The position numbers were made by a program, and so were the translations under genes. A stretch of 32,000 nt of DNA from Deltaproteobacteria bacterium (GTDB taxonomy: Bacteria > Desulfobacterota > Desulfomonilia > Desulfomonilales > Desulfomonilaceae), in NCBI GenBank assembly GCA_021777225.1, contig JAJYDQ010000037.1:2006-34005 (forward strand), read 5' to 3'. Positions within the stretch are counted from its first letter, which is position 1. Each line of letters starts with the position of its first letter. The notes below the pieces were generated by a model. The model saw nothing but the letters and a program-made list of their open reading frames with translations, was not told the origin of the DNA and searched no databases. This document shows positions 3,867 to 27,423 of this stretch, piece after piece.

Positions 3867-3894
3867 ACCGGAACCCCGCTTTGCCAGAGTATAG

Positions 3895-3911: not shown

Positions 3912-3931
3912 AACATATAACTTTTTCTGTC

Positions 3932-3961
3932 TTGACTTGACAGCCACAAAAAGTTGATAAT
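3932..3961 (+). promoter_or_regulatory. Candidate sigma70-type promoter for the ubiX operon (TTGACT-N18-GATAAT)
   Basis: Hexamers read directly. The -35 starts exactly 20 nt after the LysR box, the same spacing as at the second locus. It would place the box near -65, the classical LysR activation position. Confidence 0.35.
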
Positions 3962-5365: not shown

Positions 5366-5454
5366 CCTTTAGGATTGATCATGATGCGTGGTCGTTTCAT
5401 GAAACGAAGGACGTGTAATATCGAATCATTAAGGAAGACAGAGGAGGATCAAAC

Positions 5455-7287: not shown

Positions 7288-7317
7288 ATATTTGTCGTAA
7301 TACTATAGGAGTCCGCG

Positions 7318-8397: not shown

Positions 8398-8434
8398 GCG
8401 TCAAATAACCTAAGATAAGGAGATGTGGATTCGT

Positions 8435-9841: not shown

Positions 9842-9897
9842 ATATTAGATTACCAAACAGAAAATGCTGATCAGTTCGGTCTATGGAGGATGTCTAG

Positions 9898-12806: not shown

Positions 12807-12905
12807 AATTCTGATTCCAGGTTCTGGGAAACTATTGGTTGCAAAAACCTCGGCTTGAATTCGATAACGTGGAATTACTCCCTACAAACGATTCAGGAGG
12901 CTATA

Positions 12906-13547: not shown

Positions 13548-13565
13548 GTTAAAGAGGAGCCTGAC

Positions 13566-15133: not shown

Positions 15134-15149
15134 GTCCAGCCGCATCAAA

Positions 15150-15216: not shown

Positions 15217-15341
15217 AACATTCAACATGATCTGACCGTAACCAAGGTTGCGCTTGGCTGTTTTCGGCTTGGCACAACAACACGTGTATGGATCCAAACA
15301 CTCCACGGCCCAACTTAACCCTCAGCAAGGAGGAACCGGAA

Positions 15342-16967
15342 ATGGCTGAAGAGTACGACGGGATTATCCTCGGCGCCGGCCCCAATGGTTTGACTGTAGC
15401 GGCATATCTCGCCAGAGCCGGCCTGAAGATTCTTCTTTTGGAAAAACGTTTCGAAGCAGGAGGAGGACTGGCCACGGAACAGGTAACGTTACCGGGGTTC
15501 CTTCATAACACACATGCGGTTTACATGCCCATGGTCGATTACGCGCCTCCGTTGAGAGATTTCGACGATTACCTGACAAAGGATTATGATTTGCAATTTG
15601 TGTTCCCGTCACTAGTAATGGCCATGCCATTCGCTGATGGGACCTCGCTCCGACTTTACCAGGATGTTGAAAAAACATGTGAATCCATCGCTGAATTTTC
15701 GAAGAAGGACGCGGAAACTTACAACACGATTCAAAACAGGTTCAGAGAGCTAACAGAGGATTTTCTTGGACCGGCCACCTATGAAATGGCCAAGCCCGCA
15801 TTCGAGCAGATGATAAAGTTACATGCCACGGATGTTGGCAGAGAAATTACAGCATATACTGAAAAAACCCCCAGAGACATTGTAAACGAATTGTTTGAAA
15901 ACGACCGGGTCAGGACTCTGTTTCTTTATCTGTCCTGTATGTGGGGACTGAATTACGACCTGGAGGGGGTCAGTTATCTGGTTCCTTTGTTGTTCAACAG
16001 GGCTACCAATTACAGATTGGTCGTTGGCGGTTCACATCATCTGGCCCATTTGTTCACAAAAGTTCTTTACCGAAACGGTGGGATGATTATTTCTCCTGTC
16101 ACGGTAAAGCGAATCATCATCGAAAACGGCGCTGCCACCGGGGTCGAACTCGAAGATGGTGTTCAATATAAGGCCAGAAAGTTCGTCGCCAGTAGTCTCG
16201 ATCCATTCCAGACTTTTTTCAAGTACGTTGGGGAGGACAACCTCGAGTCGTCCTTTGTAACAAGGACCAAGGATTGGCAATGGGAAAAGTCTAGTCTGTT
16301 TCACGTGCATCTTGCACTGAATGAGGCCCCAAAATTCAAAGCTGCAGAGCAGAACGCGGACATGAATAACGCCTTTATCACGGTTTTGGGTTATGAGAAT
16401 CTCAATAATCTTATCAAACATTACGATGCTATACACCAGGGCGTGTTGTTCCCCGGTGGTTTCAATTGTTGTTTTCCGTCAATACACGACCCAAAGCAGG
16501 CGCCTCCTGGAAAACATACCGCGTTGATTTCACTGCATGCGCCACACGACCTGAAAGATGGCGGAGCGGAGAAATGGTACCGCGTTCGCGAACAGGAAGC
16601 GGATCGATGCGTCGAGATGTTAAGACAATATGCTCCCAATATTTCAGGTGATAACATTATATGGCGATACATAACCAGTCCTCTGGACATAGGAAACAAG
16701 TTCTCGGACATGGTTAAAGGGTCTTACAAACAGGGGGCCTACCTTCCTCTCCAAATGGGATACCTGCGCCCCAACGAAGAGTGTTCCCAGTATGCGACCC
16801 CCGTGAAGAATCTTTATGTCTGCGGCGCCAGCACCTTCCCCGGTGGACTCATAACATTCGGCCCCGGATACAACGCTGCCAATAAAATTGCCGAAGACTT
16901 GGGAATAGACAAATGGTGGGGTGAACCGGATTGCGTTCAAAAGGCAAAGGCAAAAGGGACGTTGTAG
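15342..16967 (+). CDS. FAD-dependent oxidoreductase, phytoene dehydrogenase/amine oxidase-like (CtmA/CtmB-like), paralog 1
   Basis: N-terminal dinucleotide fold YDGIILGAGPNGLTVAAYLARAGLKILLLEKRFEAGGG and a C-terminal FAD motif CGASTFPGGLITFGPGYNAANKI. Trimmed to ATG 15342, with AAGGAGGA 7 nt upstream. Confidence 0.85.
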   Translation: MAEEYDGIILGAGPNGLTVAAYLARAGLKILLLEKRFEAGGGLATEQVTLPGFLHNTHAVYMPMVDYAPPLRDFDDYLTKDYDLQFVFPSLVMAMPFADGTSLRLYQDVEKTCESIAEFSKKDAETYNTIQNRFRELTEDFLGPATYEMAKPAFEQMIKLHATDVGREITAYTEKTPRDIVNELFENDRVRTLFLYLSCMWGLNYDLEGVSYLVPLLFNRATNYRLVVGGSHHLAHLFTKVLYRNGGMIISPVTVKRIIIENGAATGVELEDGVQYKARKFVASSLDPFQTFFKYVGEDNLESSFVTRTKDWQWEKSSLFHVHLALNEAPKFKAAEQNADMNNAFITVLGYENLNNLIKHYDAIHQGVLFPGGFNCCFPSIHDPKQAPPGKHTALISLHAPHDLKDGGAEKWYRVREQEADRCVEMLRQYAPNISGDNIIWRYITSPLDIGNKFSDMVKGSYKQGAYLPLQMGYLRPNEECSQYATPVKNLYVCGASTFPGGLITFGPGYNAANKIAEDLGIDKWWGEPDCVQKAKAKGTL

Positions 16968-16976
16968 GAGGTAAAA

Positions 16977-17237
16977 ATGAAGGTTAATTCGACTGGATTA
17001 GGAAAAACAACCATGGTGGCCCATTTTGCCAACCTTGAAAAAGTTAACGGTGATTCAGCCCCGGCGATGAGACTTAGCATAGAAGCTACAGAACCTGTGC
17101 ATTGGTCTATAAAAGCCACTGTTGGAGGAGACGACCTTAGAGCGTTCGCCTGCATGATGCTAAGACCTTCCAACCTTTTCTGTGTATTAAAGTTACTTAT
17201 TTTTGGGAAAAAGCTCACGCCGCCGGAATCCAATTAG
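16977..17237 (+). CDS. Small hypothetical protein (86 aa) between the two flavoprotein genes
   Basis: Strong AGGAGG SD 5 nt upstream of the ATG and tight packing between neighbours. Hydrophobic C-terminal stretch LFCVLKLLIFG. No family recognised. Confidence 0.55.
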   Translation: MKVNSTGLGKTTMVAHFANLEKVNGDSAPAMRLSIEATEPVHWSIKATVGGDDLRAFACMMLRPSNLFCVLKLLIFGKKLTPPESN

Positions 17238-17281
17238 GCAGAGTTTTTGTCCAATCTTCGCAAAGATAAAGGAGCCTCTCC

Positions 17282-18946
17282 ATGCCAGATAAGACTTACG
17301 ACGCGATAGTGGTCGGCGGTGGACATCAGGGAACTATTATAGCTTGTTACCTCCAACACGCCGGCATGAAGACGGTTGTATATGAAAGGCAACACGAATT
17401 GGGAGGCGGGGCCTGTGGTGAGGAATTACCCCTACCCGGCTTCCTTCAGAACCCTTGCGCTCACTGGACCAGATTTTATGGTCATCCGGCATATGATGAT
17501 TTCAAACTCAGGAACCTCGGCCTGTCGTACGTGTTCCCTGACCATAGCGAAGGAATGATTTACGACGACGGTATGCATTTCATGGGCTATACGGCATGGA
17601 AAGTAGTCGATGAAAATACCGGCAGAGCTGAATTTAACGAACTGAACGCTCAAAAGACCATTGATCAGATATCCAGATTTTCCAAGAGAGACGCTGACAC
17701 CGCTTATGACCTTTTGGAAAAGTATAAAAAGAAGTGGAGGGCCGCTTTCCACGAATGGAGATACAATCCTCCAACCCCATGGGGAGTCAATGACGCGTTC
17801 GAACGTTTGATAGGTGACAAAGATGCTCCTATACCACCCGAATATCAGTTTTACACTTCTCAACAGGTGGCGTTTGATCTTTTCGAAAGTGATTACCTTC
17901 GCACTCTGTTCATGCGTTCATGTATGACATCAAGCGGGGTTTTCCCTAACGATGGCATCGGAATTTACAAGATTTTGCATACTCTCGGATTGATTCTTTC
18001 GTGGGAACCCGCTTCCATTGCTATTGGAGGAACCCACGCAATTACTCATGCTCTTCAAAGGGCTTTCAGTTCCATGGGTGGCGAATTTGTCGTAGAAACC
18101 GGCGTAGAAAGGGCCATTATTGAAAACGGCCGTGCTGTAGGAGTGCTGCTCAAAGATGGAAGGGAAATCGCCGCAAGACATGCTGTCGTCAGCGATATGA
18201 ACACTACTCAAACGATTTTGCAACTTATCGGTGAAGAACATGTCCCAGAAAAAATAGCACATAGGGCCAAGAATATACTTAGAGACAGGGCCCAGCTATT
18301 CTGGGGTAATTTTGCGCTTCATGAACTTCCCGAATACACGGTCGCAAAAGACAATCCGGAAATAGGAATGTGCCCTCGACTAAATTGGGGTCCCAAAGAC
18401 GCTGACTATTTCGCTACAAGGCATCAGGCTGAACTCTTTGTGAAAGGCATTCCAAATAAGCTTGTCGCCATCGTAGCGCCGGATAGCATTTGGGATAAGG
18501 GGCGGGCTCCGGAAGGAAAACATACCATCCTGATCGAACAGTTTACCGCCCCCTACAGGTTCTTCAGCGATAGAGAATGGTTGCGCATGAAAAGCGAAAT
18601 CGTTGAGACAATGAGGGAGCAATGGTCATGGTACGCTCCCAATATGACCAAAGACAACGTGATAGCCACCCATATCACCACCCCCATGGATGTTCAGATG
18701 CGAAATCTGAATATGCCTCAAGGGGGTTGGACAGGCGAAGATATGATCGCTTCCCAGATGGGCCGTATGAGACCCTTCCCAGAACTGGCGTTTTACCGAT
18801 TACCGGTTAAAAACTTGTACCTCGCGTCTGCCGCCGCTCACTCGGGTCCTGGAATTGGAAGGGGCAGCGCTTACAACTGCTTCAAGGTCATTGCGGAAGA
18901 CTTCGGTCTCCCTAAAATTTGGGAGCAAAAGGGCAGACCCTATTAG
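17282..18946 (+). CDS. FAD-dependent oxidoreductase, phytoene dehydrogenase/amine oxidase-like (CtmA/CtmB-like), paralog 2
   Basis: YDAIVVGGGHQGTIIACYLQHAGMKTVVYERQHELGGG, with C-terminal SAAAHSGPGIGRGSAYNCFKVI. Colinear with paralog 1 (shared PEGKHT, ITSP/ITTP and VKNLY motifs). AAGGAG SD present. Confidence 0.85.
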   Translation: MPDKTYDAIVVGGGHQGTIIACYLQHAGMKTVVYERQHELGGGACGEELPLPGFLQNPCAHWTRFYGHPAYDDFKLRNLGLSYVFPDHSEGMIYDDGMHFMGYTAWKVVDENTGRAEFNELNAQKTIDQISRFSKRDADTAYDLLEKYKKKWRAAFHEWRYNPPTPWGVNDAFERLIGDKDAPIPPEYQFYTSQQVAFDLFESDYLRTLFMRSCMTSSGVFPNDGIGIYKILHTLGLILSWEPASIAIGGTHAITHALQRAFSSMGGEFVVETGVERAIIENGRAVGVLLKDGREIAARHAVVSDMNTTQTILQLIGEEHVPEKIAHRAKNILRDRAQLFWGNFALHELPEYTVAKDNPEIGMCPRLNWGPKDADYFATRHQAELFVKGIPNKLVAIVAPDSIWDKGRAPEGKHTILIEQFTAPYRFFSDREWLRMKSEIVETMREQWSWYAPNMTKDNVIATHITTPMDVQMRNLNMPQGGWTGEDMIASQMGRMRPFPELAFYRLPVKNLYLASAAAHSGPGIGRGSAYNCFKVIAEDFGLPKIWEQKGRPY

Positions 18947-18958
18947 CGGGAGGAACCC

Positions 18959-19714
18959 ATGGGAAGACTTGATGGCCGAGTGGCTATTGTAACAGGCGCC
19001 GGCAAGGGCTTAGGGCAGGCTTTTTGTGTAAAGTTGGCAGAGGAAGGCGCCGACATAGTAGCTGTTACTAGAGCCGACATACAGGGCCTGAAGCAAACTG
19101 AAAAGATGGTAAGAAATTTAGGGAAACAAGCTCTAATAAGCCAGGTTGATGTCACCAATGAAAACGACACCATCAGGATGGTTGGTGAAACAGTTGATCG
19201 GTTTAGCCGTATAGATATTTTGGTAAACAACGCAGCATACTATTATGGCGTAAAGAGGAAACCATTCACTGAGATAAGTTCTGACGAGTGGGATAAAATG
19301 ATGGCTGTTAATGTAAAGGGTCCGTGGATTTGCACCAAAGCGGTCTTCGAAACTATGAAATCCCAAGGCAAAGGGAAAATAATCAACTTGACATCGGAGG
19401 TTTTCTTCACTGGTTCCCACGGGTTTGTCCATTATGTAACTTCTAAAGGAGGAGTTGTGGGGCTGACGCGAGCTTTGGCCGTAGAGCTTGGCCTTTATGG
19501 AATATGCGTGAACGCTGTAGCCCCAGGATACACGGATACTGAGGCGAGCCGGACAATTGCAGACGTCGGTAAATATGATACCAGTAAAACACCTTTGAAA
19601 AGACTGGAAACTCCGGAGGACCTCGTTGGAGTAGTCGCCTTTCTAGCATCAGATGACAGTAATTTTATAACAGGCCAGACAATCTTGGTCGATGGAGGGA
19701 GGGCTATGCACTAG
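18959..19714 (+). CDS. Classical short-chain dehydrogenase/reductase (SDR)
   Basis: TGAGKGLG cofactor motif, NNAA, and catalytic S...YVTSK (YxxxK). 251 aa. GGGAGGA SD present. Confidence 0.9.
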   Translation: MGRLDGRVAIVTGAGKGLGQAFCVKLAEEGADIVAVTRADIQGLKQTEKMVRNLGKQALISQVDVTNENDTIRMVGETVDRFSRIDILVNNAAYYYGVKRKPFTEISSDEWDKMMAVNVKGPWICTKAVFETMKSQGKGKIINLTSEVFFTGSHGFVHYVTSKGGVVGLTRALAVELGLYGICVNAVAPGYTDTEASRTIADVGKYDTSKTPLKRLETPEDLVGVVAFLASDDSNFITGQTILVDGGRAMH

Positions 19715-19943
19715 TCATGTAATATCACCGACGTCGGAGCTGGTTTATTCTTTTACTTATATTGTTGTTGCATCGAATTTCTTACTGTTTGCGGGGAAAA
19801 CCTAATTTGATTCCCCCTACCCTTTGTACTGAATTGTATTCGTGGATCCCTCCGACGAGTGTCGATAAATATAGCAGGGCCAATCGTCATTTCACAGTGT
19901 TCTATTAACCGTTTCACAATCCTTAAAGGAAGAGAGAGAACCC

Positions 19944-21626
19944 ATGAAAGTTTACGATGTTGTACCTGGCTTGGAATTCGACGCGGAGCGCGATCTGGCT
20001 CAATCCCCAGCATGGTTTTTGGACGCTACCCATTCTGTCCCACCTTGGACCCCAATGTTTGGCTGGTTTTGGATTAATTTTTGTCGTCACGGCATGCAAT
20101 ACGGCGCTGAGAAGTTGTCTCTACCTACTGTCCATGGATGGGATTGGCGTTTCATGAATGGAGGTGGCTATCTGACTCTGCTCTTAGTTAAGAGCGAAGA
20201 AGAAAAACAACGACGAGAAGTGGAGTTTAGAAAGGCCATTCTCCCGTTAATCAAAGATTACGATGGGATTTGGAATGGTTTCGTAAAAGAAGTTCTTGGA
20301 CGTTATAAAAAGCTAAAAGAGTTGGACGTAGATACCGCTTCAAATATCGAACTTCTGGACAACTTCGAGGAGACTATCAATACTTGTAGGCGAATGTGGG
20401 AAATACACATGTATATGATGTACGGGACTTATACCGCCTACATCCTTTTTGAAAATATGTGTCGTGAACTTGTTGGGATAGACGACACATCCCCGTCATT
20501 TCATCGCATAGTGTCCGGTTTCGACAACAAGGTATTTCAGGTTGACCGTCGTCTCTGGGAGTTTTCCAAGATCGCGTCCGACATGGGACTTGAAGACGTC
20601 TTCCTAAAGAATGAAGAAGTTGACATTCGCGAGAAACTAGAAGAATCAGATAGCGGCCACAATTTCCTCAAACAATTTAGAGAGTTCCTTAACGAAGACG
20701 GTTGGCGTATGCAACGAATGTCCGAAATCAACCTGCCCACCTGGGTGGAAGATCCTACCCCGGCTCTTTCGATGGTGAAACAATTTATCCAAAAGGGGGG
20801 GGCATTTAATCTCGACGAAGAGCGAAAGAAAATAAGCGTTGAAAGAATCGAAACAGAGAAAGAAATTCTTGCCAAGGTTCCTTCCGAGCAACGAGCTTGG
20901 TTTGAACCTCTTATGCGTCTCGCTCAAAAAAGCGGTATATTTAGTGAGGAGCATGATCATTATCTTGATTTATACACACATGCGATGATGCGCCGAAGCG
21001 CTCTAGGGATGGGAAGACGCTTCGTAAAGGCTGGCGCAATTGATGATCACGAAGACATCTTTTTTCTTATCCCCGATGAAGTTCGTCGCGCTGGAATCAA
21101 TCCTGGCCAGTTCGATCTCCGTTACATAGTAGACAGGCGACGCTCCGAATGGTTGGAATGGCAAAAAACTCCCAATCCACCGGCTATTTTAGCTGAGGGA
21201 TTCGATTTGGACCAAGCGATGGGCGTCCTGGTCAAATCAAATGACCCTATTGCCCTTAAGGTAGTTGTTGGTTCCATGCCTCAAGTACGGCCTGAACTGA
21301 AGGCCGACCTGTACGGGACGTGCGGATCACCGGGTGTGGCTGAAGGAACGGCAAGGGTTATCGTAACTGAGGATGAATTACACCTTATCAAAGAAGGGGA
21401 CATCCTTGTGGCGGTAAGCACCTCACCGAGCTGGACCCCTGTATTTTCAATGATCAGTGGGGTTGTAGTCGACCGAGGAGCGAGCCTTTCACACGCCGCT
21501 ATTGTCGGCCGGGAATATGGAATTCCGGTCGTTATGAACGTGTTTGAGGGTACCGCCAAGATTCAATCAGGTCAACGCATCAGGGTCGACGCTAACCTGG
21601 GCGCTGTTTACATACTCGACAAGTAA
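19944..21626 (+). CDS. PEP-utilizing enzyme with phospho-histidine swivel domain, second divergent PpsA-like subunit
   Basis: 560 aa. C-terminus GSPGVAEGTARVI...LVAVSTSPSWTP...GASLSHAAIVGREYGIPVV carries the catalytic His. The N-terminal two-thirds are only distantly related to 5455-7287. Confidence 0.8.
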   Translation: MKVYDVVPGLEFDAERDLAQSPAWFLDATHSVPPWTPMFGWFWINFCRHGMQYGAEKLSLPTVHGWDWRFMNGGGYLTLLLVKSEEEKQRREVEFRKAILPLIKDYDGIWNGFVKEVLGRYKKLKELDVDTASNIELLDNFEETINTCRRMWEIHMYMMYGTYTAYILFENMCRELVGIDDTSPSFHRIVSGFDNKVFQVDRRLWEFSKIASDMGLEDVFLKNEEVDIREKLEESDSGHNFLKQFREFLNEDGWRMQRMSEINLPTWVEDPTPALSMVKQFIQKGGAFNLDEERKKISVERIETEKEILAKVPSEQRAWFEPLMRLAQKSGIFSEEHDHYLDLYTHAMMRRSALGMGRRFVKAGAIDDHEDIFFLIPDEVRRAGINPGQFDLRYIVDRRRSEWLEWQKTPNPPAILAEGFDLDQAMGVLVKSNDPIALKVVVGSMPQVRPELKADLYGTCGSPGVAEGTARVIVTEDELHLIKEGDILVAVSTSPSWTPVFSMISGVVVDRGASLSHAAIVGREYGIPVVMNVFEGTAKIQSGQRIRVDANLGAVYILDK

Positions 21627-21714
21627 TCCAAGGCCTGCAGGATCAAAAGTTTAACTATTGATTCGGGTAGTTTTTGTACCCGGACCTGCTCTCTCCGGAA
21701 AGGATCGGATTGAA

Positions 21715-22740
21715 ATGGCCAAGAAATGGATCTACTGGTTCGACGAAATCGGCTCCGATTTTAACGACCTCGTTGGGAAAAAGTGCGCTAACCTTGGAGA
21801 GATGACAAAGCTTGGCATGAAGGTACCTCCAGGCTTTGCCATATCCGTGGATGGTTATGAGCAGTTTATGGAAGAGAGTGGCGCTGCGAAAGAAATTCAA
21901 AGCTACTTCCATGAAAATAGGGCCATGATGTCTCTGGTTGGCAAACAAGTCGAAGCAAGTCGTGAAATACGCCGAATAATTGAGTCAAAGAGCTTGCCTA
22001 AGGAAATGGCCCAAGAACTCCGTCACAGCTACGAGACCCTTTGTCATCAGGTAGGGATTCCTGATCTGGCGGTGGCTGTGCGATCCAGTGGGGCGGTCAG
22101 CATGCCCGGTCAGATGGAGACTTATCTCAATGTGCGAGGCAAAAGCGAACTTGAGAGAAAAGTCACACAGGTTTGGGCCAGCGCATTCACCGCACGTGCA
22201 ATCGCTTTTCGGCTTGAAAAGAATATGGACATAGCAAAAGCCCCGATCGGTGTGGCCGTGCTCAAAATGGTGAACGCTAAATGCGCCGGAGTTGTTCTCA
22301 CTGTTCAACCTACGACGGGAAACTTGAACAAGGTGGTGGTGGAAGGTAACTGGGGACTTGGCGAAAGTGTTGTCAGCGGAGAAATCACACCGGACCAATT
22401 TATTGTTGACAAGGCAAGTGGCTCCTGCGAAACCACCATCAGCCCAAAAAACAAAATGGTTTGTTATGGCCAAGTAGGAACTAGGGTGGCTGAAGTTCCC
22501 AAGCACTTACAGTGTGAGGCATGCTTGGCTCCTGACGAGTTATCTGAAATTGTAAGGATTGCGACAGATGTTGAGAATTATTTCAACCTTCCACAGGACA
22601 TGGAATGGGTCATAGATCAGGACCTCCCTTTTCCTGAAAACATTTACTGGGTGCAGGCCCGTCCCGCCAAATACTCCAAGGTGGAGCAGGATGAGTCAGT
22701 TTACCTGGCGGACCTAATGTCAAGGATCTTCAGAATGTAA
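21715..22740 (+). CDS. PPDK N-terminal (ATP-grasp) domain protein, second PpsB-like subunit
   Basis: VGKKCANLGEM, VPPGFAISV, AVRSSGAVSMPGQMETYLN and DMEWV...WVQARPA. Trimmed from TTG 21658 to ATG 21715. Confidence 0.85.
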   Translation: MAKKWIYWFDEIGSDFNDLVGKKCANLGEMTKLGMKVPPGFAISVDGYEQFMEESGAAKEIQSYFHENRAMMSLVGKQVEASREIRRIIESKSLPKEMAQELRHSYETLCHQVGIPDLAVAVRSSGAVSMPGQMETYLNVRGKSELERKVTQVWASAFTARAIAFRLEKNMDIAKAPIGVAVLKMVNAKCAGVVLTVQPTTGNLNKVVVEGNWGLGESVVSGEITPDQFIVDKASGSCETTISPKNKMVCYGQVGTRVAEVPKHLQCEACLAPDELSEIVRIATDVENYFNLPQDMEWVIDQDLPFPENIYWVQARPAKYSKVEQDESVYLADLMSRIFRM

Positions 22741-22775
22741 ACAGGGCCAATGGCTTTTTAGCGGAGGAGGCGGAA

Positions 22776-23435
22776 ATGACCAGCCTATTTACTCAATATT
22801 GGGACGTAATTCCTGGAAGGTTCGATGATTACTCTGCATTCGTGACAAAAGAGTACGTGCCTACAATGGAAAAGCTGGGCCTGAAACTTCTCGGCGGTTT
22901 CTACGTGGCTGTCGGTCAGGGACCCAGGATAATCGTTGTAGGCACGGTAGAGGAACAGGACTATCTACGACGTATCCTGTCTACGGAACAATACAGGATT
23001 GTCATGGAAGGACTTTTCGAATTCACATGTAAATATTCGAGTAAACTTTATGTATCCAGCGGAAGAGTAACTCAAGGGCCATACGCCATTCAAACAGGCG
23101 CATGGAAATTTAACCAGTATTATAACATCATCCCTGGTAAAGAAACTGAGCACTATCATTTTGTTAAGAACGAGTGCATGCCGGGAATGAAAGAGTTGGG
23201 TGTCCCTGTGACAGGGGCGTGGCGCATGGTCATAGGAGAAGGCCCTAGAATTCTTGCGGAATGCACATCCCGTAACATGATGGGCATTGCAGAGTGTATC
23301 GATACTTCGTTGTTTCGAAAACTGGTGCGGCGACTCAAGAAACATTTCGCTACTGATTACAACAGCAGGATACTGGCACCTACAGGGAGGATAGAAATTC
23401 CCTCACTCATGCAAAACATGATGAAAGGCTTTTAG
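22776..23435 (+). CDS. Hypothetical protein with an internal tandem duplication (two ~105-aa ferredoxin-like / dimeric alpha-beta-barrel-type halves)
   Basis: GGAGGAGG SD. The halves align by eye: QYWDVIPG..F..FV.KEYVPTMEKLG...GQGPRI...GRV versus QYYNIIPG..H..FVKNECMPGMKELG...GEGPRI...GRI. Confidence 0.6.
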   Translation: MTSLFTQYWDVIPGRFDDYSAFVTKEYVPTMEKLGLKLLGGFYVAVGQGPRIIVVGTVEEQDYLRRILSTEQYRIVMEGLFEFTCKYSSKLYVSSGRVTQGPYAIQTGAWKFNQYYNIIPGKETEHYHFVKNECMPGMKELGVPVTGAWRMVIGEGPRILAECTSRNMMGIAECIDTSLFRKLVRRLKKHFATDYNSRILAPTGRIEIPSLMQNMMKGF

Positions 23436-23455
23436 GGGAACGAAAGGAGTTCAAA

Positions 23456-23776
23456 ATGTACGTCAGAATGACGTTCTTCCGTGTTAAAGAAGGAAAAATG
23501 GATGACCTTCGAAACATCTACAACAAACAGGTCATCTCCGCCCACAAAGGCCATAAAGGGATTCGGTTTGTGCATCTACTTGAGTGCATGGATAGCGTTA
23601 ACGATGGCATTTCCATCACCGCATGGGACACCAAAGCTGACGTTGACGCATACGAAAAAAGCGGTGATTATGAAAAACTTGTTGCAATGTTTAAAGAAAT
23701 GTACGCTGCTGAGCCGATCTTGAAATCTTATGAGATAACGGCCAGTTCCGAGCCAATCCTTCTTCGAATTTTTTAG
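23456..23776 (+). CDS. ABM (antibiotic biosynthesis monooxygenase)-like dimeric alpha-beta-barrel protein
   Basis: 106 aa. The MYVRMTFFRVKEG..D start and ITAWDTKADVDAYEKSGDY pattern are typical of ABM/ferredoxin-like small proteins. AAAGGAG SD present. Confidence 0.55.
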   Translation: MYVRMTFFRVKEGKMDDLRNIYNKQVISAHKGHKGIRFVHLLECMDSVNDGISITAWDTKADVDAYEKSGDYEKLVAMFKEMYAAEPILKSYEITASSEPILLRIF

Positions 23777-23790
23777 GACATTGGAGGAAA

Positions 23791-24372
23791 ATGAAATTCC
23801 TAAATCCACAGACGCGGTTTCAGGAAATACGCGAGATGGCGGAATCATTCCTGGACACACGAAACAATCTAATTCATATGGAGGTTTCAAGCGCGTTCGC
23901 CTTGAGATTGCTGAACTCTGAACCTGGCGATGAGACTGTGGTAATGCCTGCAATAATCCTTCACGACGTAGGATGGAAAATGGTACCCGAAGAATTGCAG
24001 ATTCAAGCTTTCGGGCCAAAAGCCAAAGACATGGAGACTAACAGAATTCATGAGGTTGAGGGAGCGCGAATAGCACGCGAAATTCTGGAAAAGCTCGAAT
24101 ACGAAGCTTCTTTGGTGGACGAGATAGTTGAGATCATTCTCGGACATGATTCCCGTAGAAACCCATTATCTTTTAACGACGCTATTGTAAAAGACGCAGA
24201 TAAACTATGGCGTTTTTCTAAGGAAGCGTTCAAAATCGACCCTGAGCGCTTTGGAATCGATCCCTTGGCGCACATGCATTGGCTTGGCCAACAAATAGAT
24301 GGATGGTTTGTAACAGAAACCGGTAGAAAAGTTGCCCGTGAAGAGCAACGACTCCGGGTCGTAAGTCTTTAA
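23791..24372 (+). CDS. HD-domain metal-dependent phosphohydrolase, paralog 2
   Basis: AIILHDVGWKMVPEELQ, NRIHEVEGARIAREILEK, ILGHDSR and AIVKDADKLWRFS are near-identical blocks shared with 13566-14165. GGAGGA SD present. Confidence 0.8.
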   Translation: MKFLNPQTRFQEIREMAESFLDTRNNLIHMEVSSAFALRLLNSEPGDETVVMPAIILHDVGWKMVPEELQIQAFGPKAKDMETNRIHEVEGARIAREILEKLEYEASLVDEIVEIILGHDSRRNPLSFNDAIVKDADKLWRFSKEAFKIDPERFGIDPLAHMHWLGQQIDGWFVTETGRKVAREEQRLRVVSL

Positions 24373-24397
24373 ACAATCCGTTGATTAGGAAATTGTT

Positions 24398-27058
24398 ATG
24401 AAAAGAGTTCAGCTAACCATTAACGGGGTCCCACACACATTGGACGTTGATTACCAGCTAGTCCTGGTGGATTTATTACGTGACAAACTTTCTCTGACAG
24501 GGACCAAGCAATCTTGCGATAGAAAGGGACAATGCGGTTCTTGCACAGTAATAGTAAACGACAAGGCAGTACATTCCTGTCTTGTAAAGGTAGCTGATCT
24601 TGATGGAGCCGAAGTCATTTCCATAGAGGGACTTGGCACACCAGAAAACCCTCATCTAATCCAGGAAGCTTTTGCGCTTGCTGGAGCAGTTCAGTGCGGT
24701 TTTTGCACACCTGGTATGGTCATGTCTACCAAGGCTCTCCTCGACAAAGCCCCCAATCCCGGAACTGAACAAATCATGAAAGCCCTCAGGGGGAATTTGT
24801 GTCGATGTACCGGGTACAAAAAAATAATTGAGGCGGTAGAATTGGCGGCAAGATTCTTGAGAGGAGAAATTTCCCCTGAACAGGTACGACCAAAGGCTTC
24901 AGCCGGCCTAATCGGTATGTCACGCCCTAGACCCCATGCCTTGACGCTGGCTTGCGGTACCGCAAAATTTTCTGCGGACATCCGGATGGATGGCATGCTT
25001 GAATTGGCGGTCGTTCGCAGTCCTCATCAGCACGCTATAATAAAATCCGTTGACACTTCTCATGCCGAGAAGATACCCGGCGTTATTGGGATAATGACAG
25101 CCAGTGACATTAGGGGATCAAATCGGATTAGAGAAGATCAGCCACTGTTGTGTGACAAGAAAATTCACGTCTTGGGTGACGCCATTGCAATAGTAGCGGC
25201 GGAAACCAAGGCACAGGCTTTAGCCGGCGTCGAAGCTGTGAAAATAGAATACGAAACGCTGCCCGCCGTAACGACAACTTCGGAGGCCCTAAAGCCAGAG
25301 TCTCCCAGGGTTCATGATGAATCGCCTAACCTTTGCTATGAACACCCTCAGATTAAAGGAAACGCTGAAGAAGCGCTAAAGCAAGCAGCCGCAACAGTGG
25401 AGAGTAAATTTTCAACTCAACTCATCCATCAGGCGGCTTTGGAGCCGGAAGCGTCAGTGGCCTACCTTGAACCCGCTGAAGAAGGTGAAGATCCAAAACT
25501 TATAGTAATAGGACGCAGCATTTATATCCATTATCATTTGATGGTATTACAGGAAGCCCTAGGCTGGAACAATATGCGTTACGAGCAGGCATTTATTGGC
25601 GGCCAATTTGGAATGAAGATGGACATCACGGCAGAGGGTATTGCGGGGGCTGCAGCTCTTCATTTTAAGCGTCCCGTGCGGTATGTGTGTTCACTAGCGG
25701 AGTCAATGCAAATAACCACGAAGAGACACCCATTCGAAATGAAGACACGTCTCGGGGTCGACGACAAAGGTAAGCTTACGGCATACGCTATAGATTTTAC
25801 AGTCGAAAACGGGGCCTACACGTCTGCGGGTAAATCGGTCCTAAACCGGGCGTTGTATATGCTCAGCGGATCATACGATATTCCGAATGTCCGAGCTAAA
25901 GGTCAGTTGGTTTACACTAATAACGCTTGGGGTGGAGCCGCTAGAGGAGCGGGTCCACCTCAAGTCAACTTTGCTTTGGAGTCGGCCATTGAGCTTTTGG
26001 CCGCCAAAATTGGCATGGATCCTCTGGAATTTCGCCTGTCAAACTCTTTGCAACCAGGCAAATCAATATCTACGGGCCAGATTGTGGAAGAGTGGCCCTA
26101 TCCAGGGTGCCTCCAGGCTCTAAGACCGCACTATCAAAGGGCCCTCAAAGAATCTACCGATCAGAAGAAAGGTAAGATCAGACGAGGTGTTGGAATCGCC
26201 GGAGGAAGTTTTGGCATAGGTAGAGGCGGCCCTGACAGGTCGAATGTGGCCGTGGAAATCGACCCCGACGGAGGACTCACGGTTTACGGGTCCATCGCCG
26301 ACCCAGGGGAAGGGAACGACGCTATGCTTACACAGATAGCTTCTCACCTGACCAATATACCTCCAGAAAAAATTCGTCTGGTCATCCGGGACACGGACAG
26401 GACTCCCGACGCTAGCTCGGCCTCGGGTAGCCGTGTTACATATATGAGCGGCGGGGCTATGGTAAAAGCCATAGAAGCCCTCAAGGCCGGAATGGCAGAA
26501 GTTGGAGCCGCTTCTTACGATGCGCTTGTCGCAGCAGGAAAACCCACCAGGTACCTGGGTTCCAGGATCTCTGAAACCACGTTCCTGGATAATAAAACGG
26601 GTCAGGGCTCACCTTTCGAATCCCGTGTTCATGGCGTTCAAATGGCTGAAGTTGAGGTTGACATTGAGACAGGCGGCGTCAGAATCCTTAAGATAACTGC
26701 TGTTGTTGATCCTGGAACCATCATTAATCCGATGATAGTTGAAGGGCAGATCGAAGGTGGAGTGGATATGGGCGCGGGGATGGCTCTCCGTGAGCATTAC
26801 GTTCATGGTCTGACTACTGATTGGAAAGGAATCAAGTTTCCAACCATGGGGACAGCGTTTGACATTGACGTAATCCTCCTTCAGACACATCGTAAACGAG
26901 GCACACTGGGAGCGGTAGGCGTGGGAGAATTTGTTCTATTACCAACTGCGGCGGCAATAGTTTCCGCTATTCAGAACGCCACAGGAGGGTCCCGCATCTG
27001 TCACCTTCCGGCTACCCCCGAACGAGTCCTTGAATCTTTGAAGCCAGGAGTAAGTTAA
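24398..27058 (+). CDS. Molybdenum hydroxylase of the xanthine oxidase family, single-polypeptide MOP-type aldehyde oxidoreductase (2x[2Fe-2S] plus Moco domains, no FAD domain)
   Basis: 886 aa. N-terminal CDRKGQCGSCTV...C (plant-type 2Fe-2S) and QCGFCTPG...CRCTGY (second 2Fe-2S). Moco-domain motifs GGQFGMK and C-terminal GAVGVGEF, which holds the catalytic Glu. Confidence 0.9.
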   Translation: MKRVQLTINGVPHTLDVDYQLVLVDLLRDKLSLTGTKQSCDRKGQCGSCTVIVNDKAVHSCLVKVADLDGAEVISIEGLGTPENPHLIQEAFALAGAVQCGFCTPGMVMSTKALLDKAPNPGTEQIMKALRGNLCRCTGYKKIIEAVELAARFLRGEISPEQVRPKASAGLIGMSRPRPHALTLACGTAKFSADIRMDGMLELAVVRSPHQHAIIKSVDTSHAEKIPGVIGIMTASDIRGSNRIREDQPLLCDKKIHVLGDAIAIVAAETKAQALAGVEAVKIEYETLPAVTTTSEALKPESPRVHDESPNLCYEHPQIKGNAEEALKQAAATVESKFSTQLIHQAALEPEASVAYLEPAEEGEDPKLIVIGRSIYIHYHLMVLQEALGWNNMRYEQAFIGGQFGMKMDITAEGIAGAAALHFKRPVRYVCSLAESMQITTKRHPFEMKTRLGVDDKGKLTAYAIDFTVENGAYTSAGKSVLNRALYMLSGSYDIPNVRAKGQLVYTNNAWGGAARGAGPPQVNFALESAIELLAAKIGMDPLEFRLSNSLQPGKSISTGQIVEEWPYPGCLQALRPHYQRALKESTDQKKGKIRRGVGIAGGSFGIGRGGPDRSNVAVEIDPDGGLTVYGSIADPGEGNDAMLTQIASHLTNIPPEKIRLVIRDTDRTPDASSASGSRVTYMSGGAMVKAIEALKAGMAEVGAASYDALVAAGKPTRYLGSRISETTFLDNKTGQGSPFESRVHGVQMAEVEVDIETGGVRILKITAVVDPGTIINPMIVEGQIEGGVDMGAGMALREHYVHGLTTDWKGIKFPTMGTAFDIDVILLQTHRKRGTLGAVGVGEFVLLPTAAAIVSAIQNATGGSRICHLPATPERVLESLKPGVS

Positions 27059-27071
27059 GAGGACAGACGCC

Positions 27072-27419
27072 GTGATTAAGGGTGATTGTCCTGAAGTTCC
27101 GGAGCCTGATATCGACGATCAGAAGGGTCCGAATTCGTTGTTTGACGAAGAGGGATTCCTTAACAATCCTGAATCGTGGAACGAAACCATTGCGAAGAAA
27201 ATAGCTCAGGGGCAAGGTTTACCTGAGCTAAATGATTCTCACTGGCAAGTCATACGTTTCCTCAGAAATTACTACCTGACAATGGGTAAGGCTCCGTTGA
27301 ACAGCGAGTTAAAAAAGGGCGTAGGTTTGAACATGACGCAGATCGAGAAGATGTTTCCCACCGGCATCAGGCTTGGAGCGCGACGCATAGCAGGGTTGCC
27401 GAATCCAAAAAACTGTTGA
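27072..27419 (+). CDS. TusE/DsrC-family sulfur-carrier protein (single C-terminal Cys)
   Basis: 115 aa. FDEEGFL..PESW.E.IA, HWQVIRFLRNYY and a C-terminal arm AGLPNPKNC ending in Cys. The second conserved Cys of true DsrC, about 10 residues upstream, is absent. GTG start with AAGAGGA upstream. Confidence 0.8.
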   Translation: MIKGDCPEVPEPDIDDQKGPNSLFDEEGFLNNPESWNETIAKKIAQGQGLPELNDSHWQVIRFLRNYYLTMGKAPLNSELKKGVGLNMTQIEKMFPTGIRLGARRIAGLPNPKNC

Positions 27420-27423
27420 ATTT

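What the first reader, a model, noticed from the sequence alone, without database searches (positions are those of the whole stretch)
19944..24372. Second, divergent split-kinase module associated with ferredoxin-like-fold proteins and its own HD phosphohydrolase
The second His-swivel/ATP-grasp pair keeps all catalytic motifs, but the substrate-side N-terminal region of the large subunit is essentially unrelated to the first copy. This indicates a different phospho-acceptor. It is followed by a tandem-duplicated alpha-beta-barrel-type protein, an ABM-like protein and an HD paralog, rather than a UbiD gene. ABM and ferredoxin-like barrels commonly act as cofactor-free isomerases, tautomerases or decarboxylases. 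The module may phosphorylate a substrate, rearrange it and then dephosphorylate it. I do not recognise this gene combination from any described pathway.
Basis: partly seen in the sequence, partly recalled or inferred. Interest (0 to 1): 0.65.

Follow-up and report, generated by a model that had tools for sequence, protein, structure and literature searches.

The report
Oxygen-free Cre-like aryl-phosphate oxidation operon
The second kinase pair is part of a larger, widely conserved anaerobic gene cluster that most likely tags a phenol-type compound with phosphate, oxidises a side-chain methyl group to an acid without oxygen, and then removes the phosphate; this resembles the aerobic cresol (Cre) pathway but has not been described.

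Summary
The genes are real, but the five-gene block is only the middle of a 12-gene co-directional cluster (15288-28575) with a divergent LysR gene. The cluster holds two CtmAB-type flavoenzyme subunits, an SDR, the split dikinase A2/B2, a tandem ferredoxin-fold protein (X219), an ABM protein, an HD hydrolase, a Mo aldehyde oxidoreductase and two likely maturation genes.

In 41 related loci with full flanks:
- B2 is present in 41, X219 in 38, the flavoenzyme in 38 and the SDR in 36.
- An aldehyde-oxidising enzyme is present in 39. It is W-AFOR in 22, Mo-AOR in 11 and NAD-ALDH in 6, and the three types never co-occur.
- A phosphatase is present in 30: HD in 22 loci, DUF89 in 11.

HD2 matches only two of 72,556 plasmids. 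Both matches lie inside Rhodococcus Cre-type clusters, with one in the CreD position. The SDR is 43% identical to the CreG-like SDR.

The large-subunit N-terminus is not unrelated to copy 1 (22% identity, E 2e-20) and folds like the rifampin-binding domain.

Best reading (about 0.5): an O2-independent analogue of the Cre pathway, running alkylphenol to aryl phosphate to phospho-alcohol, -aldehyde and -acid, then to hydroxy-acid. The substrate is unproven, and the roles of X219 and ABM are unknown. I class it as a new variant of a known kind.

The parts
14213..15148 (-). LysR-type regulator, transcribed divergently from the cluster
   Evidence: Pfam HTH_1 and LysR_substrate. A LysR gene is found in 24 of 41 full-flank loci and sits in this position in the group-1 loci.
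15288..16967 (+). FAD1: CrtI/CtmAB-type flavoenzyme subunit with the covalent-flavin motif GFLHNTHA
   Evidence: Pfam NAD_binding_8 and Amino_oxidase. The sequence motif equals the consensus G-F-L/R-X-N/S-T/L-H-A of CtmAB and delta24-SD (PMC11061730). It is 30% identical to FAD2.
16977..17237 (+). 86-aa ORF between the two flavoenzyme genes; function unknown
   Evidence: No Pfam or NCBIfam hit. It is conserved in this position in more than 19 loci.
17282..18946 (+). FAD2: the core CtmAB-type flavoenzyme subunit, with the variant motif GFLQNPCAH
   Evidence: A flavoenzyme of this family is present in 38 of 41 full-flank loci. In groups 2 and 3 the single copy is FAD2-type and sits next to ETF and a membrane Fe-S/CCG oxidoreductase.
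18959..19714 (+). SDR, proposed phospho-aryl alcohol dehydrogenase (CreG-like)
   Evidence: Pfam adh_short. It is 43% identical to the SDR of the Rhodococcus Cre-type cluster; the group-3 orthologue is 51% identical. Present in 36 of 41 loci.
19944..21626 (+). A2: dikinase large subunit, with a helical substrate domain plus a swivel domain carrying His517
   Evidence: The AF2 model matches rifampin phosphotransferase 5fbu at E 3.6e-15 and TMq 0.58 over 464 columns. Precomputed PF27448 Rph_4th.
21658..22740 (+). B2: ATP-grasp (nucleotide-binding) subunit of the dikinase
   Evidence: Pfam PPDK_N, E 2.8e-83. It is 35% identical to B1. PDB matches include 9goj, which I take to be HpeI, at 179 bits, and RPH. 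Present in 41 of 41 loci.
22776..23435 (+). X219: tandem ferredoxin-like (ABM/NIPSNAP-type) protein, a constant partner of B2; role unknown
   Evidence: (all hits are 'hypothetical'). Present in 38 of 41 loci and directly after B2.
23456..23776 (+). ABM-domain protein, an accessory gene found in group-1 loci (also in L070)
   Evidence: Pfam ABM, E 3.8e-8. Present in 19 of 41 loci.
23791..24372 (+). HD2: HD-domain phosphohydrolase (CreD-like), proposed aryl-phosphate hydrolase
   Evidence: Pfam HD. It is 70% identical to HD1. Its only plasmid matches are HD genes inside two Rhodococcus Cre-type clusters, at 38-42% identity.
24398..27058 (+). Mo-dependent aldehyde oxidoreductase with a fused 2x[2Fe-2S] domain
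   Evidence: Pfam Fer2, Fer2_2, Ald_Xan_dh_C and MoCoBD_1/2. NCBIfam NF045668 gives 780 bits over the full length, below its cut-off of 1100. It is replaced by W-AFOR or NAD-ALDH in other loci, and the three never co-occur.
27072..27419 (+). DsrC/TusE-like sulfur-relay protein, probably for Mo-cofactor sulfuration
   Evidence: Pfam DsrC and TIGR03342. It travels with the Mo-AOR in 7-8 loci.
27424..28575 (+). Class-V aminotransferase / cysteine desulfurase, probably for Mo-cofactor sulfuration
   Evidence: Pfam Aminotran_5, and TIGR01977 above its cut-off. It travels with the Mo-AOR.
9898..11559 (+). Acyl/aryl-CoA ligase of the neighbouring module, a possible shared exit step
   Evidence: Pfam AMP-binding. 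In L017 a 60%-identical ligase lies inside the A2 operon, between ABM and Mo-AOR.

Best explanation
The cluster 15288-28575 encodes an oxygen-independent analogue of the Cre (4-cresol) pathway. The proposed steps are:

1. [quoted passage not shown] B2 binds ATP. His517 of A2 is pyrophosphorylated, then monophosphorylated, and passes the phosphate to a hydroxyl of a small aromatic substrate. That hydroxyl is most likely the phenolic OH of a cresol or other alkylphenol.
2. The CtmAB-type flavoenzyme FAD1/FAD2 hydroxylates the side-chain methyl group with water. Electrons go to ETF and a membrane Fe-S oxidoreductase in other lineages. The acceptor in this window is unknown.
3. The SDR oxidises the phospho-aryl alcohol to the aldehyde.
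4. The Mo aldehyde oxidoreductase oxidises the aldehyde to the acid. The DsrC-like protein and the cysteine desulfurase probably mature this enzyme.
5. HD2 hydrolyses the phospho-aryl carboxylate to a hydroxybenzoate-type acid.
6. The neighbouring CoA ligase can then activate that acid.

Shown here: the domain identities, the homologies, the conserved gene set, and the non-orthologous replacement of the aldehyde-oxidising and phosphatase steps. Inferred: the substrate class, the order of the steps, and every catalytic activity. X219 and ABM have no assigned step. X219 is probably an accessory partner of the kinase.
For: 1. Kinase architecture. A2 and B2 are a split ATP-grasp plus swivel-His protein with a rifampin-binding-like helical domain. 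This is the architecture described for PpsAB, CreHI and HpeHI (PMC12167813).

2. Link to Cre through HD2. Among 72,556 plasmids HD2 matches only two records. Both matches lie inside Rhodococcus clusters ordered P450, PEP/pyruvate-binding, PEP-utilizing, SDR, ferredoxin, reductase, HD, ALDH. This is the order of C. glutamicum creJ-I-H-G-F-E-D-C, in which creD is the phosphohydrolase. One match is the CreD-position gene and the other is an additional HD gene at the edge of the cluster; that plasmid's CreD-position HD also matches. Identities are 38-42% for HD2, 43% for the SDR (51% for the group-3 SDR) and 39% for the group-3 ALDH against the CreC-like protein.

3. Conserved gene set in 41 full-flank loci: B2 41, X219 38, flavoenzyme 38, SDR 36. 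An aldehyde oxidiser is present in 39, as W-AFOR 22, Mo-AOR 11 or NAD-ALDH 6, with zero co-occurrence. A phosphatase is present in 30 (HD in 22 loci, DUF89 in 11). Twenty-eight loci carry all five functions.

4. Flavoenzyme type. FAD1 carries the exact covalent-flavin motif of limonene dehydrogenase CtmAB and delta24-SD, which act on allylic C-H without O2. FAD1 and FAD2 are 30% identical paralogues, like those heterodimers. ETF and a membrane Fe-S/CCG oxidoreductase flank the flavoenzyme in other lineages, which fits an oxidative dehydrogenase.

5. Aromatic context. XylR_N/V4R sigma-54 activators of aromatic catabolism adjoin 12 loci. In the window the cluster adjoins a phenol-type module: A1 is 43% identical to the CreH-like protein, UbiD passes the phenylphosphate carboxylase beta cut-off, and the module ends with a CoA ligase and HD1.
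Against: - A2 is only 26% identical to both the PpsA-like copy and the Rhodococcus CreH-like protein, whereas characterised phenolic kinases share about 45%. The acceptor may therefore not be phenolic. RPH, which is equally distant, phosphorylates an aliphatic hydroxyl.
- CtmAB and delta24-SD are known only on allylic terpenoid or steroid carbons, not on benzylic methyl groups. FAD2 has Cys where those enzymes have the flavinylated His.
- I could not compare FAD1 or FAD2 directly with CtmA or CtmB sequences.
- 11 of 41 loci show no phosphatase within 10 kb.
- X219, the most constant partner after B2, has no role in the model.
- An SDR identity of 43% is not diagnostic.
- No experiment or expression data exist, and no paper in the searchable library describes this cluster.
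Confidence: 0.5

Rival explanations
1. The enzyme logic is the same (methyl to alcohol to aldehyde to acid), but the substrate is a terpenoid, isoprenoid or steroid-type compound rather than an alkylphenol. The CtmAB-like enzyme would hydroxylate an allylic methyl group, as in limonene to perillyl alcohol to perillic acid. A2/B2 would phosphorylate an aliphatic or terpenoid hydroxyl, for trapping or recognition.
For: - The only characterised relatives of FAD1/FAD2 act on limonene and on a sterol side chain.
- A2 lies outside the roughly 45%-identity phenolic kinase group.
- A2 resembles RPH, which phosphorylates an aliphatic hydroxyl, as much as it resembles PpsA.
- A continuum of uncharacterised relatives of about 555 aa exists.
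Against: - The HD phosphatase and the SDR find their nearest annotated counterparts in Cre-type aromatic clusters.
- XylR_N/V4R regulators adjoin some loci.
- HD2 is 70% identical to HD1 of the phenol-type module.
- The known limonene pathway needs no kinase or phosphatase.
Confidence: 0.2
2. One reading: the five-gene block phosphorylates a substrate, the ferredoxin-fold proteins X219 and ABM isomerise, tautomerise or decarboxylate it without a cofactor, and HD2 then dephosphorylates it.
For: - X219 follows B2 in 38 of 41 loci.
- Its fold family includes cofactor-free isomerases and decarboxylases. From my own knowledge, the ABM-family protein LsrG isomerises a phosphorylated substrate.
Against: - ABM is dispensable, being present in 19 of 41 loci.
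- The model ignores the flavoenzyme, SDR and aldehyde oxidiser that are conserved just as strongly.
- X219 has no detectable family or active-site assignment.
- The whole-chain TM-score to any solved protein is only about 0.4.
Confidence: 0.1
3. Simple redundancy: A2/B2 is a second phenylphosphate synthase, or a second cresol kinase, with the same substrate as A1/B1.
For: - The architecture and catalytic His are the same.
- The two modules are adjacent in the window and in close relatives.
- HD1 and HD2 are 70% identical.
Against: - Identities are only 26% and 35%.
- A2/B2 occurs without A1, B1 or UbiD in nearly all loci. A1-like genes were found in 2 and UbiD in 1 of 41.
- It has its own oxidative partners.
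- A2 orthologues are 70-99% conserved across classes, as a separate lineage.
Confidence: 0.05
4. Reverse or leaving-group logic: an acid is reduced to an aldehyde (W-/Mo-AOR) and then to an alcohol (SDR). A2/B2 phosphorylates the alcohol to make a leaving group, which is then eliminated or reduced. This is analogous to the ATP-dependent dehydration in sterol side-chain degradation.
For: - From my own knowledge, W-AFOR enzymes can reduce acids.
- Phosphorylation followed by elimination has a precedent in 25-HSK and 25-PSL.
Against: - In six loci the aldehyde enzyme is an NAD-dependent ALDH, which works in the oxidative direction.
- ETF and a membrane oxidoreductase indicate an electron-donating dehydrogenase.
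- 25-HSK is an unrelated ADP-forming kinase.
- HD proteins are hydrolases, and CreD is a phosphohydrolase.
Confidence: 0.05

Closest known systems
Cre pathway for 4-cresol in Corynebacterium glutamicum (CreHI, CreJEF, CreG, CreC, CreD) and its Rhodococcus plasmid counterparts
   Same: - A two-component dikinase, an SDR alcohol dehydrogenase, an aldehyde-oxidising enzyme and an HD phosphohydrolase are clustered together.
- HD2 is 38-42% and the SDR 43% identical to the Rhodococcus proteins.
- The group-3 loci add a CreC-like ALDH at 39% identity and a second HD.
   Different: - There is no P450, ferredoxin or reductase. A CtmAB-type flavoenzyme takes that place, with ETF in other lineages.
- The kinase large subunit is only 26% identical to the CreH-like protein.
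- In this window the aldehyde step is a Mo enzyme.
- X219 and ABM are extra genes.
- The hosts are strict anaerobes (Desulfomonilaceae and relatives).
Phenylphosphate synthase PpsAB(C) with phenylphosphate carboxylase (Thauera, Geobacter, Desulfatiglans); the window's own first module, 5455-14165
   Same: Split ATP-grasp and swivel-His architecture with a catalytic His. A CreD-like HD gene closes each module.
   Different: - The second module has no UbiD/UbiX carboxylase and no CBS (PpsC-like) protein.
- Identities are 26% and 35%.
- A2 is about 50 residues shorter.
- The neighbours are oxidative enzymes instead.
HpeHI hydroxyphenylethanone dikinase and rifampin phosphotransferase (RPH)
   Same: A2 models like HpeH, with a helical rifampin-binding-like domain plus a swivel domain. 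RPH is the only full-length structural match, at about 21% identity over about 470 columns. The paper reports 20% over 473 residues for HpeH.
   Different: RPH is a single fused chain and acts in antibiotic resistance. The Hpe pathway continues with a biotin carboxylase and a NagD/HAD-type phosphatase, neither of which is present here.
Limonene dehydrogenase CtmAB and sterol delta24-desaturase (heterodimeric covalent-flavin enzymes)
   Same: Two paralogous CrtI-like subunits encoded side by side, 30% identical to each other. FAD1 has the exact flavinylation motif.
   Different: FAD2 has Cys at the His position. The known substrates are allylic terpenoid or steroid carbons. Those pathways have no associated kinase or phosphatase.

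Membership tests
Two-component small-molecule dikinases (PpsAB/CreHI/HpeHI; RPH-like) | Separate ATP-grasp (PPDK_N) subunit encoded next to the large subunit | tested here: met
   B2 hits PF01326 at E 2.8e-83, and the gene starts 31 bp after A2.
Two-component small-molecule dikinases (PpsAB/CreHI/HpeHI; RPH-like) | C-terminal swivel domain with the phospho-carrier His in T/S-x-x-G-G-x-x-x-H | tested here: met
   PF00391 at residues 482-553. His517 is conserved in 73 of 75 family members. The motif is the variant V-D-R-G-A-S-L-S-H.
Two-component small-molecule dikinases (PpsAB/CreHI/HpeHI; RPH-like) | Helical substrate domain homologous to the rifampin-binding domain of RPH | tested here: met
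   - phmmer to RPH: A2 residues 224-559 against RPH 551-867, E 9e-30.
- Foldseek to 5fbu: E 3.6e-15, TMq 0.58, 464 columns, on a model with pLDDT 67.
- Precomputed PF27448.
Two-component small-molecule dikinases (PpsAB/CreHI/HpeHI; RPH-like) | Membership of the phenolic-substrate clade (about 45% pairwise identity among PpsA, CreH and HpeH) | tested here: not met
   A2 is 26% identical to A1 and 26% to the Rhodococcus CreH-like protein. A1 is 43% identical to the latter.
Two-component small-molecule dikinases (PpsAB/CreHI/HpeHI; RPH-like) | ATP converted to AMP plus Pi, with beta-phosphate transfer to the acceptor | not testable with these tools
   This needs an enzyme assay.
Cre-type pathway (phosphate-protected methyl oxidation) | HD-domain phosphohydrolase (CreD) in the cluster | tested here: met
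   HD2 is 38-42% identical to the HD genes of two Rhodococcus Cre-type clusters, which are its only plasmid matches. creD is listed as a phosphohydrolase.
Cre-type pathway (phosphate-protected methyl oxidation) | SDR alcohol dehydrogenase (CreG) in the cluster | tested here: met
   43% identity over 245 aa, E 6e-66. Present in 36 of 41 loci. That level of identity alone is not diagnostic.
Cre-type pathway (phosphate-protected methyl oxidation) | Aldehyde dehydrogenase step (CreC) | tested here: inconclusive
   The window has a Mo-AOR, not an ALDH. The step is filled in 39 of 41 loci by one of three unrelated enzymes, and the group-3 ALDH is 39% identical to the CreC-like protein. This is functional equivalence, not homology, in the window.
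Cre-type pathway (phosphate-protected methyl oxidation) | P450 CreJ with ferredoxin and reductase (CreEF) as the methyl oxidase | tested here: not met
   No P450, ferredoxin or reductase is found in the window or in the related loci. A CtmAB-type flavoenzyme is present instead.
Cre-type pathway (phosphate-protected methyl oxidation) | Substrate is 4-cresol, via 4-methylphenyl phosphate | not testable with these tools
   This needs biochemistry or physiology.
CtmAB / delta24-SD covalent-flavin oxidoreductases | Two paralogous subunits encoded together | tested here: met
   FAD1 and FAD2 are 30% identical, E 3e-74, and are separated only by an 86-aa ORF.
CtmAB / delta24-SD covalent-flavin oxidoreductases | N-terminal motif G-F-L/R-X-N/S-T/L-H-A in both subunits | tested here: inconclusive
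   FAD1 has GFLHNTHA, an exact match. FAD2 has GFLQNPCAH, with Cys at the His position.
CtmAB / delta24-SD covalent-flavin oxidoreductases | Sequence similarity to CtmA/CtmB themselves | not tested
Only generic CrtI/CrtO-family hits were obtained.
Phenylphosphate synthase/carboxylase system | UbiD-type carboxylase (with UbiX) coupled to the kinase | tested here: not met
   There is none in the second module. UbiD lies near A2 in 1 of 41 loci. The first module has it.

The most novel reading that the evidence does not exclude
This would be a widespread, previously unrecognised oxygen-independent route for oxidising the methyl group of cresols or other alkylphenols through aryl-phosphate intermediates. 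A CtmAB-type flavin hydroxylase working on a benzylic carbon would replace P450, PCMH or fumarate addition. X219 would be a new obligatory component of a new dikinase subfamily. This would give sulfate reducers and syntrophs a third anaerobic cresol strategy. It could also explain the reported methyl-group oxidation of m-cresol, which the quinone-methide mechanism cannot account for.
Probability: 0.4. Interest if true: 0.75.

Novelty: new variant of a known kind. Interest (0 to 1): 0.6.

Why it matters
Anaerobic cresol and alkylphenol degradation is known to start in two ways. One is a flavocytochrome that needs a free para-hydroxyl and a high-potential acceptor. The other is glycyl-radical fumarate addition.

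A phosphate-protected, flavin-dependent methyl oxidation would be a third chemistry. It would extend CtmAB-type water-dependent hydroxylation to aryl phosphates. It would also show that the 'phosphorylate first' logic of the aerobic Cre and Hpe pathways has an anoxic counterpart.

The cluster is common. Relatives were found in 223 of 250 candidate stretches from a species-level genome set. The protein database holds 990 proteins at E <= 0.001, and all 120 listed are at least 79% identical. Most come from sediment, groundwater and soil Thermodesulfobacteriota. The cluster may therefore matter for the turnover of tyrosine- and lignin-derived phenolics.

The mutually exclusive use of W-AFOR, Mo-AOR and NAD-ALDH is also a clear case of non-orthologous displacement that fixes one pathway step.

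Tried and rejected
- **Sterol 25-hydroxysteroid kinase and lyase as the analogue.** Rejected. 25-HSK is an ADP-forming kinase with little similarity to known phosphotransferases.
- **The 2026 anaerobic benzene flavoprotein paper.** Unrelated; it concerns the VAO/PCMH family.
- **Literature searches for an existing description.** I tried phenylphosphate synthase with phytoene or limonene dehydrogenase, cresyl and methylphenyl phosphates, and Desulfomonile. Nothing was found. One search was wasted on a term that was too broad. The primary Cre paper, PMC4813557, is not held.
- **Operon signals.** Sigma-70 promoters and terminators were no more frequent than in shuffled sequence. The same held for the sigma-54 consensus. 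There were no Rfam families.
- **HD2 against PDB sequences.** No match.
- **X219 against ABM.** No sequence similarity.
- **X219 family scans.** Pfam and NCBIfam gave nothing for the window protein. Only a sub-threshold NIPSNAP hit appeared for the group-3 orthologue.
- **Looking up P0022 to reach a cultured Desulfomonile genome.** This returned only metagenome contigs, which show the same gene order with W-AFOR and UPF0261.
- **Crude ORF clustering.** It mis-called some genes in high-GC loci, so I combined it with tblastn for the counts.

Full report
**What is in the window**

There are two modules.

Upstream module, a phenol-type set:
- LysR (2946-3947, minus strand)
- UbiX-like flavoprotein (4275-4856)
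- PNPOx-like protein (4853-5365)
- dikinase large subunit A1 (5455-7287)
- ATP-grasp subunit B1 (7318-8397)
- UbiD (8423-9841), which passes the cut-off of the phenylphosphate carboxylase beta model
- CoA ligase (9898-11559)
- UPF0261 (11556-12806)
- CBS protein (12855-13547)
- HD1 (13566-14165)

Second set, following a divergent LysR gene (14213-15148):
- FAD1 (15288-16967)
- an 86-aa ORF (16977-17237)
- FAD2 (17282-18946)
- SDR (18959-19714)
- A2 (19944-21626)
- B2 (21658-22740)
- X219 (22776-23435)
- ABM (23456-23776)
- HD2 (23791-24372)
- a Mo aldehyde oxidoreductase with fused [2Fe-2S] domains (24398-27058)
- a DsrC/TusE-like protein (27072-27419)
- a cysteine desulfurase (27424-28575)

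Gaps in the second set are 4-44 bp, except for 229 bp before A2. Consensus scans for promoters, terminators, sigma-54 sites and Rfam families gave nothing above chance.

**Checking the observation**

The domain calls are right. A2 has a C-terminal swivel domain, B2 is an ATP-grasp, ABM and HD are as stated, and HD2 is 70% identical to HD1.

His517 lies in VDRGASLSHAAIVGREYGIP, which is almost invariant in 75 family members. B2 keeps the nucleotide-binding motifs.

X219 is a genuine internal duplication. Its halves are 29% identical, E 2e-18. The AlphaFold model is of moderate confidence (pLDDT 68). It shows two beta-alpha-beta-beta-alpha-alpha-beta units. Its best structural matches are duplicated-ABM 'putative monooxygenases' (3f44, 3mcs), WhiE-ORFI and NIPSNAP proteins. 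The whole-chain TM-score is only about 0.4, against 0.6-0.7 for a single domain.

The claim that the N-terminal region of A2 is essentially unrelated to A1 is wrong. The N-terminal 450 residues align at 22% identity, E 2e-20, and the whole proteins at 26%, E 2e-48. The A2 model (pLDDT 67) has one full-length structural match, rifampin phosphotransferase: 5fbu, E 3.6e-15, TMq 0.58, 464 columns, 21% identity. That agrees with the phmmer match of residues 224-559 to RPH. It also agrees with what was published for HpeH.

**Conservation**

- The A2 protein has 990 database relatives at E <= 0.001. All 120 listed are at least 79% identical and are named only 'PEP-utilizing enzyme'.
- A scan of one genome per species found 223 encoding loci, of which 80 were fetched. 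They are mostly Desulfomonilaceae, Syntrophaceae, Desulfobacterales and Desulfatiglandales MAGs. At about 70% identity there are also Alpha- and Gammaproteobacteria MAGs.
- tblastn of the window proteins against these loci, and an all-against-all clustering of ORFs, show that the five-gene block is not the conserved unit.
- The counts for the 41 loci with full 10-kb flanks are in the table below.

| Gene or function | Loci (of 41) |
|---|---|
| B2 | 41 |
| X219 | 38 |
| CtmAB-type flavoenzyme | 38 |
| SDR | 36 |
| any aldehyde-oxidising enzyme | 39 |
| any phosphatase | 30 |
| ETF | 20 |
| ABM | 19 |
| exact five-gene block | 13 |

The aldehyde-oxidising enzyme is a tungsten-type AFOR in 22 loci, a Mo-AOR in 11 and an NAD-dependent ALDH in 6. 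No locus carries two types. HD is found in 22 loci and a DUF89/ARMT1 phosphatase in 11, so a few loci carry both.

Three gene arrangements recur:
- Group 1 (the window type): LysR | FAD1-s86-FAD2-SDR-A2-B2-X219-ABM-HD-(Mo-AOR or W-AFOR).
- Group 2: XylR_N/V4R sigma-54 activator, then SDR-A2-B2-X219-Fe-S/CCG membrane oxidoreductase-ETF-FAD2-type flavoenzyme. In several of these loci W-AFOR lies directly upstream of A2.
- Group 3 (Alpha- and Gammaproteobacteria): flavoenzyme-EtfB-EtfA-Fe-S/CCG-A2-B2-X219-SDR-UPF0261-HD-ALDH-HD.

Replacing one step with three unrelated enzymes is strong evidence that the pathway includes an aldehyde-to-acid step. The HD/DUF89 alternation argues, more weakly, for a dephosphorylation step.

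**Link to a described pathway**

A full-text search led to the two-component small-molecule dikinases: PpsAB (phenol), CreHI (4-cresol) and HpeHI (hydroxyacetophenones). All are split homologues of rifampin phosphotransferase (PMC12167813 and PMC9618137).

In C. glutamicum the cre operon runs as follows (PMC7764795):
- creC: benzaldehyde dehydrogenase
- creD: phosphohydrolase
- creE and creF: P450 system partners
- creH and creI: 4-methylbenzyl phosphate synthase
- creJ: P450

From my own knowledge of Du et al. 2016 (a paper not held), the phosphate stays on while the methyl group is oxidised to the acid, and CreD then removes it.

tblastn of HD2 against 72,556 plasmids gave only two matching records. 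Both matches lie in Rhodococcus clusters ordered IclR, P450, PEP/pyruvate-binding, PEP-utilizing, SDR, ferredoxin, reductase, HD, ALDH. One match is the CreD-position HD. The other is an extra HD gene just upstream of the IclR regulator, and that plasmid's CreD-position HD also matches.

Identities to the R. ruber proteins:

| Window or group-3 protein | R. ruber counterpart | Identity |
|---|---|---|
| HD2 | HD genes | 38-42% |
| HD1 | HD genes | 34-38% |
| SDR | CreG-like SDR | 43% |
| group-3 SDR | CreG-like SDR | 51% |
| group-3 ALDH | CreC-like ALDH | 39% |
| A1 | CreH-like | 43% |
| B1 | CreI-like | 45% |
| A2 | CreH-like | 26% |
| B2 | CreI-like | 35% |

The cluster therefore shares four homologous components with Cre: both kinase subunits, the SDR and the HD. 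A fifth function, aldehyde oxidation, is supplied by homologous or analogous enzymes depending on the lineage.

**The replaced step**

There is no P450 system. In its place stand FAD1 and FAD2, two CrtI-like paralogues that are 30% identical. FAD1 carries GFLHNTHA. This is exactly the covalent-flavin consensus reported for both subunits of limonene dehydrogenase CtmAB and the sterol delta24-desaturase (PMC11061730). These heterodimeric flavoenzymes hydroxylate or desaturate allylic carbons without oxygen.

FAD2-type subunits carry GF[LR]xN[PF]CAH, with Cys at the His position. Where only one flavoenzyme gene is present, it lies next to ETF genes and a membrane Fe-S/CCG oxidoreductase. That is the usual route by which anaerobes pass electrons from a dehydrogenase to the quinone pool.

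**Most likely mechanism**

The architecture is shown; the activities are inferred.

1. A2/B2 uses ATP to phosphorylate a hydroxyl of a small aromatic compound through His517.
2. The flavoenzyme hydroxylates a methyl group with water.
3. The SDR oxidises the alcohol to the aldehyde.
4. The Mo-AOR oxidises the aldehyde to the acid. The DsrC-like protein and cysteine desulfurase travel only with the Mo-AOR and probably supply its sulfido ligand.
5. HD2 removes the phosphate.
6. A CoA ligase activates the hydroxy-acid. It is adjacent in the window and lies inside the operon in L017.

Three observations favour an aromatic, phenolic substrate:
- the CreD-like and CreG-like partners;
- the XylR_N/V4R regulators;
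- the 70% identity of HD2 to HD1, which belongs to the phenol-type module.

**Reasons for caution**

- A2 is far outside the roughly 45%-identity group of characterised phenolic kinases.
- A2 belongs to a large, uncharacterised set of relatives of about 555 aa. There are 831 cluster representatives at E <= 1e-30, ranging continuously from 54% down to 30% identity.
- CtmAB-type enzymes are not known to act on benzylic carbons.
- 11 of 41 loci lack a nearby phosphatase.
- X219 has no role in the model, although it is the most constant partner of B2. It also has tandem paralogues in some loci.

For these reasons I put the Cre-like alkylphenol reading at about 0.5 and a terpenoid-type substrate with the same enzyme logic at about 0.2.

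**Novelty and verdict**

No paper in the searchable library describes this cluster. It is a new variant of a known kind. The dikinase family and the phosphate-protected oxidation logic are known from aerobes. The flavin-based, oxygen-independent version, the distinct kinase subfamily and the X219 partner are not.

The finding is real and conserved.

Noticed in passing
window 13566-14165 (HD1), within module 4275-14165: A CreD-like HD protein, 70% identical to HD2, closes the phenol-type module (UbiX, PNPOx-like, A1, B1, UbiD, CoA ligase, UPF0261, CBS, HD1). It might stand in for the phosphatase subunit of phenylphosphate carboxylase. That would make this HD family a general aryl-phosphate hydrolase.
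   Followed up: partly
window 24398-28575; also L003, L006, L017, L019, L021, L045, L056, L080: The Mo aldehyde oxidoreductase, a DsrC/TusE-like protein and a cysteine desulfurase travel together. The two small genes are not seen beside the W-AFOR or ALDH versions of the cluster in the loci examined. This suggests a dedicated Mo-cofactor sulfuration set.
   Followed up: partly
window 17282-18946 (FAD2) and its orthologues in L003-L082: FAD2-type flavoenzyme subunits have Cys (GFLQNPCAH or GFRGNFCAH), or rarely His (GFRQNPHAH), where CtmAB and delta24-SD have the flavinylated His. FAD1-type subunits keep GFLHNTHA. This could mean a different flavin linkage or a non-covalent flavin.
   Followed up: partly
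L028, L035, L044, L057, L058, L061, L072 (upstream of W-AFOR and A2): There are tandem arrays of two or three X219 paralogues (26-32% identity to X219) between the SDR and the W-AFOR gene. These are in addition to the X219 orthologue after B2.
   Followed up: no
window 16977-17237: An 86-aa ORF with no family assignment lies between the two flavoenzyme genes. It is conserved in this position in about 20 loci and may be a small third subunit.
   Followed up: no
window 1675-2949 (-) and 11556-12806 (+); also L008, L017, L018, L026, L031, L073, L074, L076, L085: The window holds two UPF0261 paralogues, and UPF0261 genes recur inside or beside these clusters in about 13-16 loci. Their function is unknown, and none of the models accounts for them.
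   Followed up: no
window 19944-21626 against L074 and other group-3 loci: A2 is the most conserved protein of the cluster. It is 70% identical between the Delta- and Alphaproteobacterial versions, against 57% for B2, 53% for the flavoenzyme, 50% for the SDR and 43% for X219. This is unusually strong constraint for a substrate-binding subunit.
   Followed up: no
window 30582-30989 (-): A short ORF matches only the C-terminal part of the ARPP-1 domain (ARG and Rhodanese-Phosphatase-superfamily-associated protein). It may be a truncated gene.
   Followed up: no
L006 and L056 against the window: In these relatives, whose A2 is 90% identical, the phenol-type module (second UPF0261, second LysR, UbiX and onward) follows the cysteine desulfurase instead of preceding the cluster. 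The two modules stay adjacent but are permuted.
   Followed up: partly
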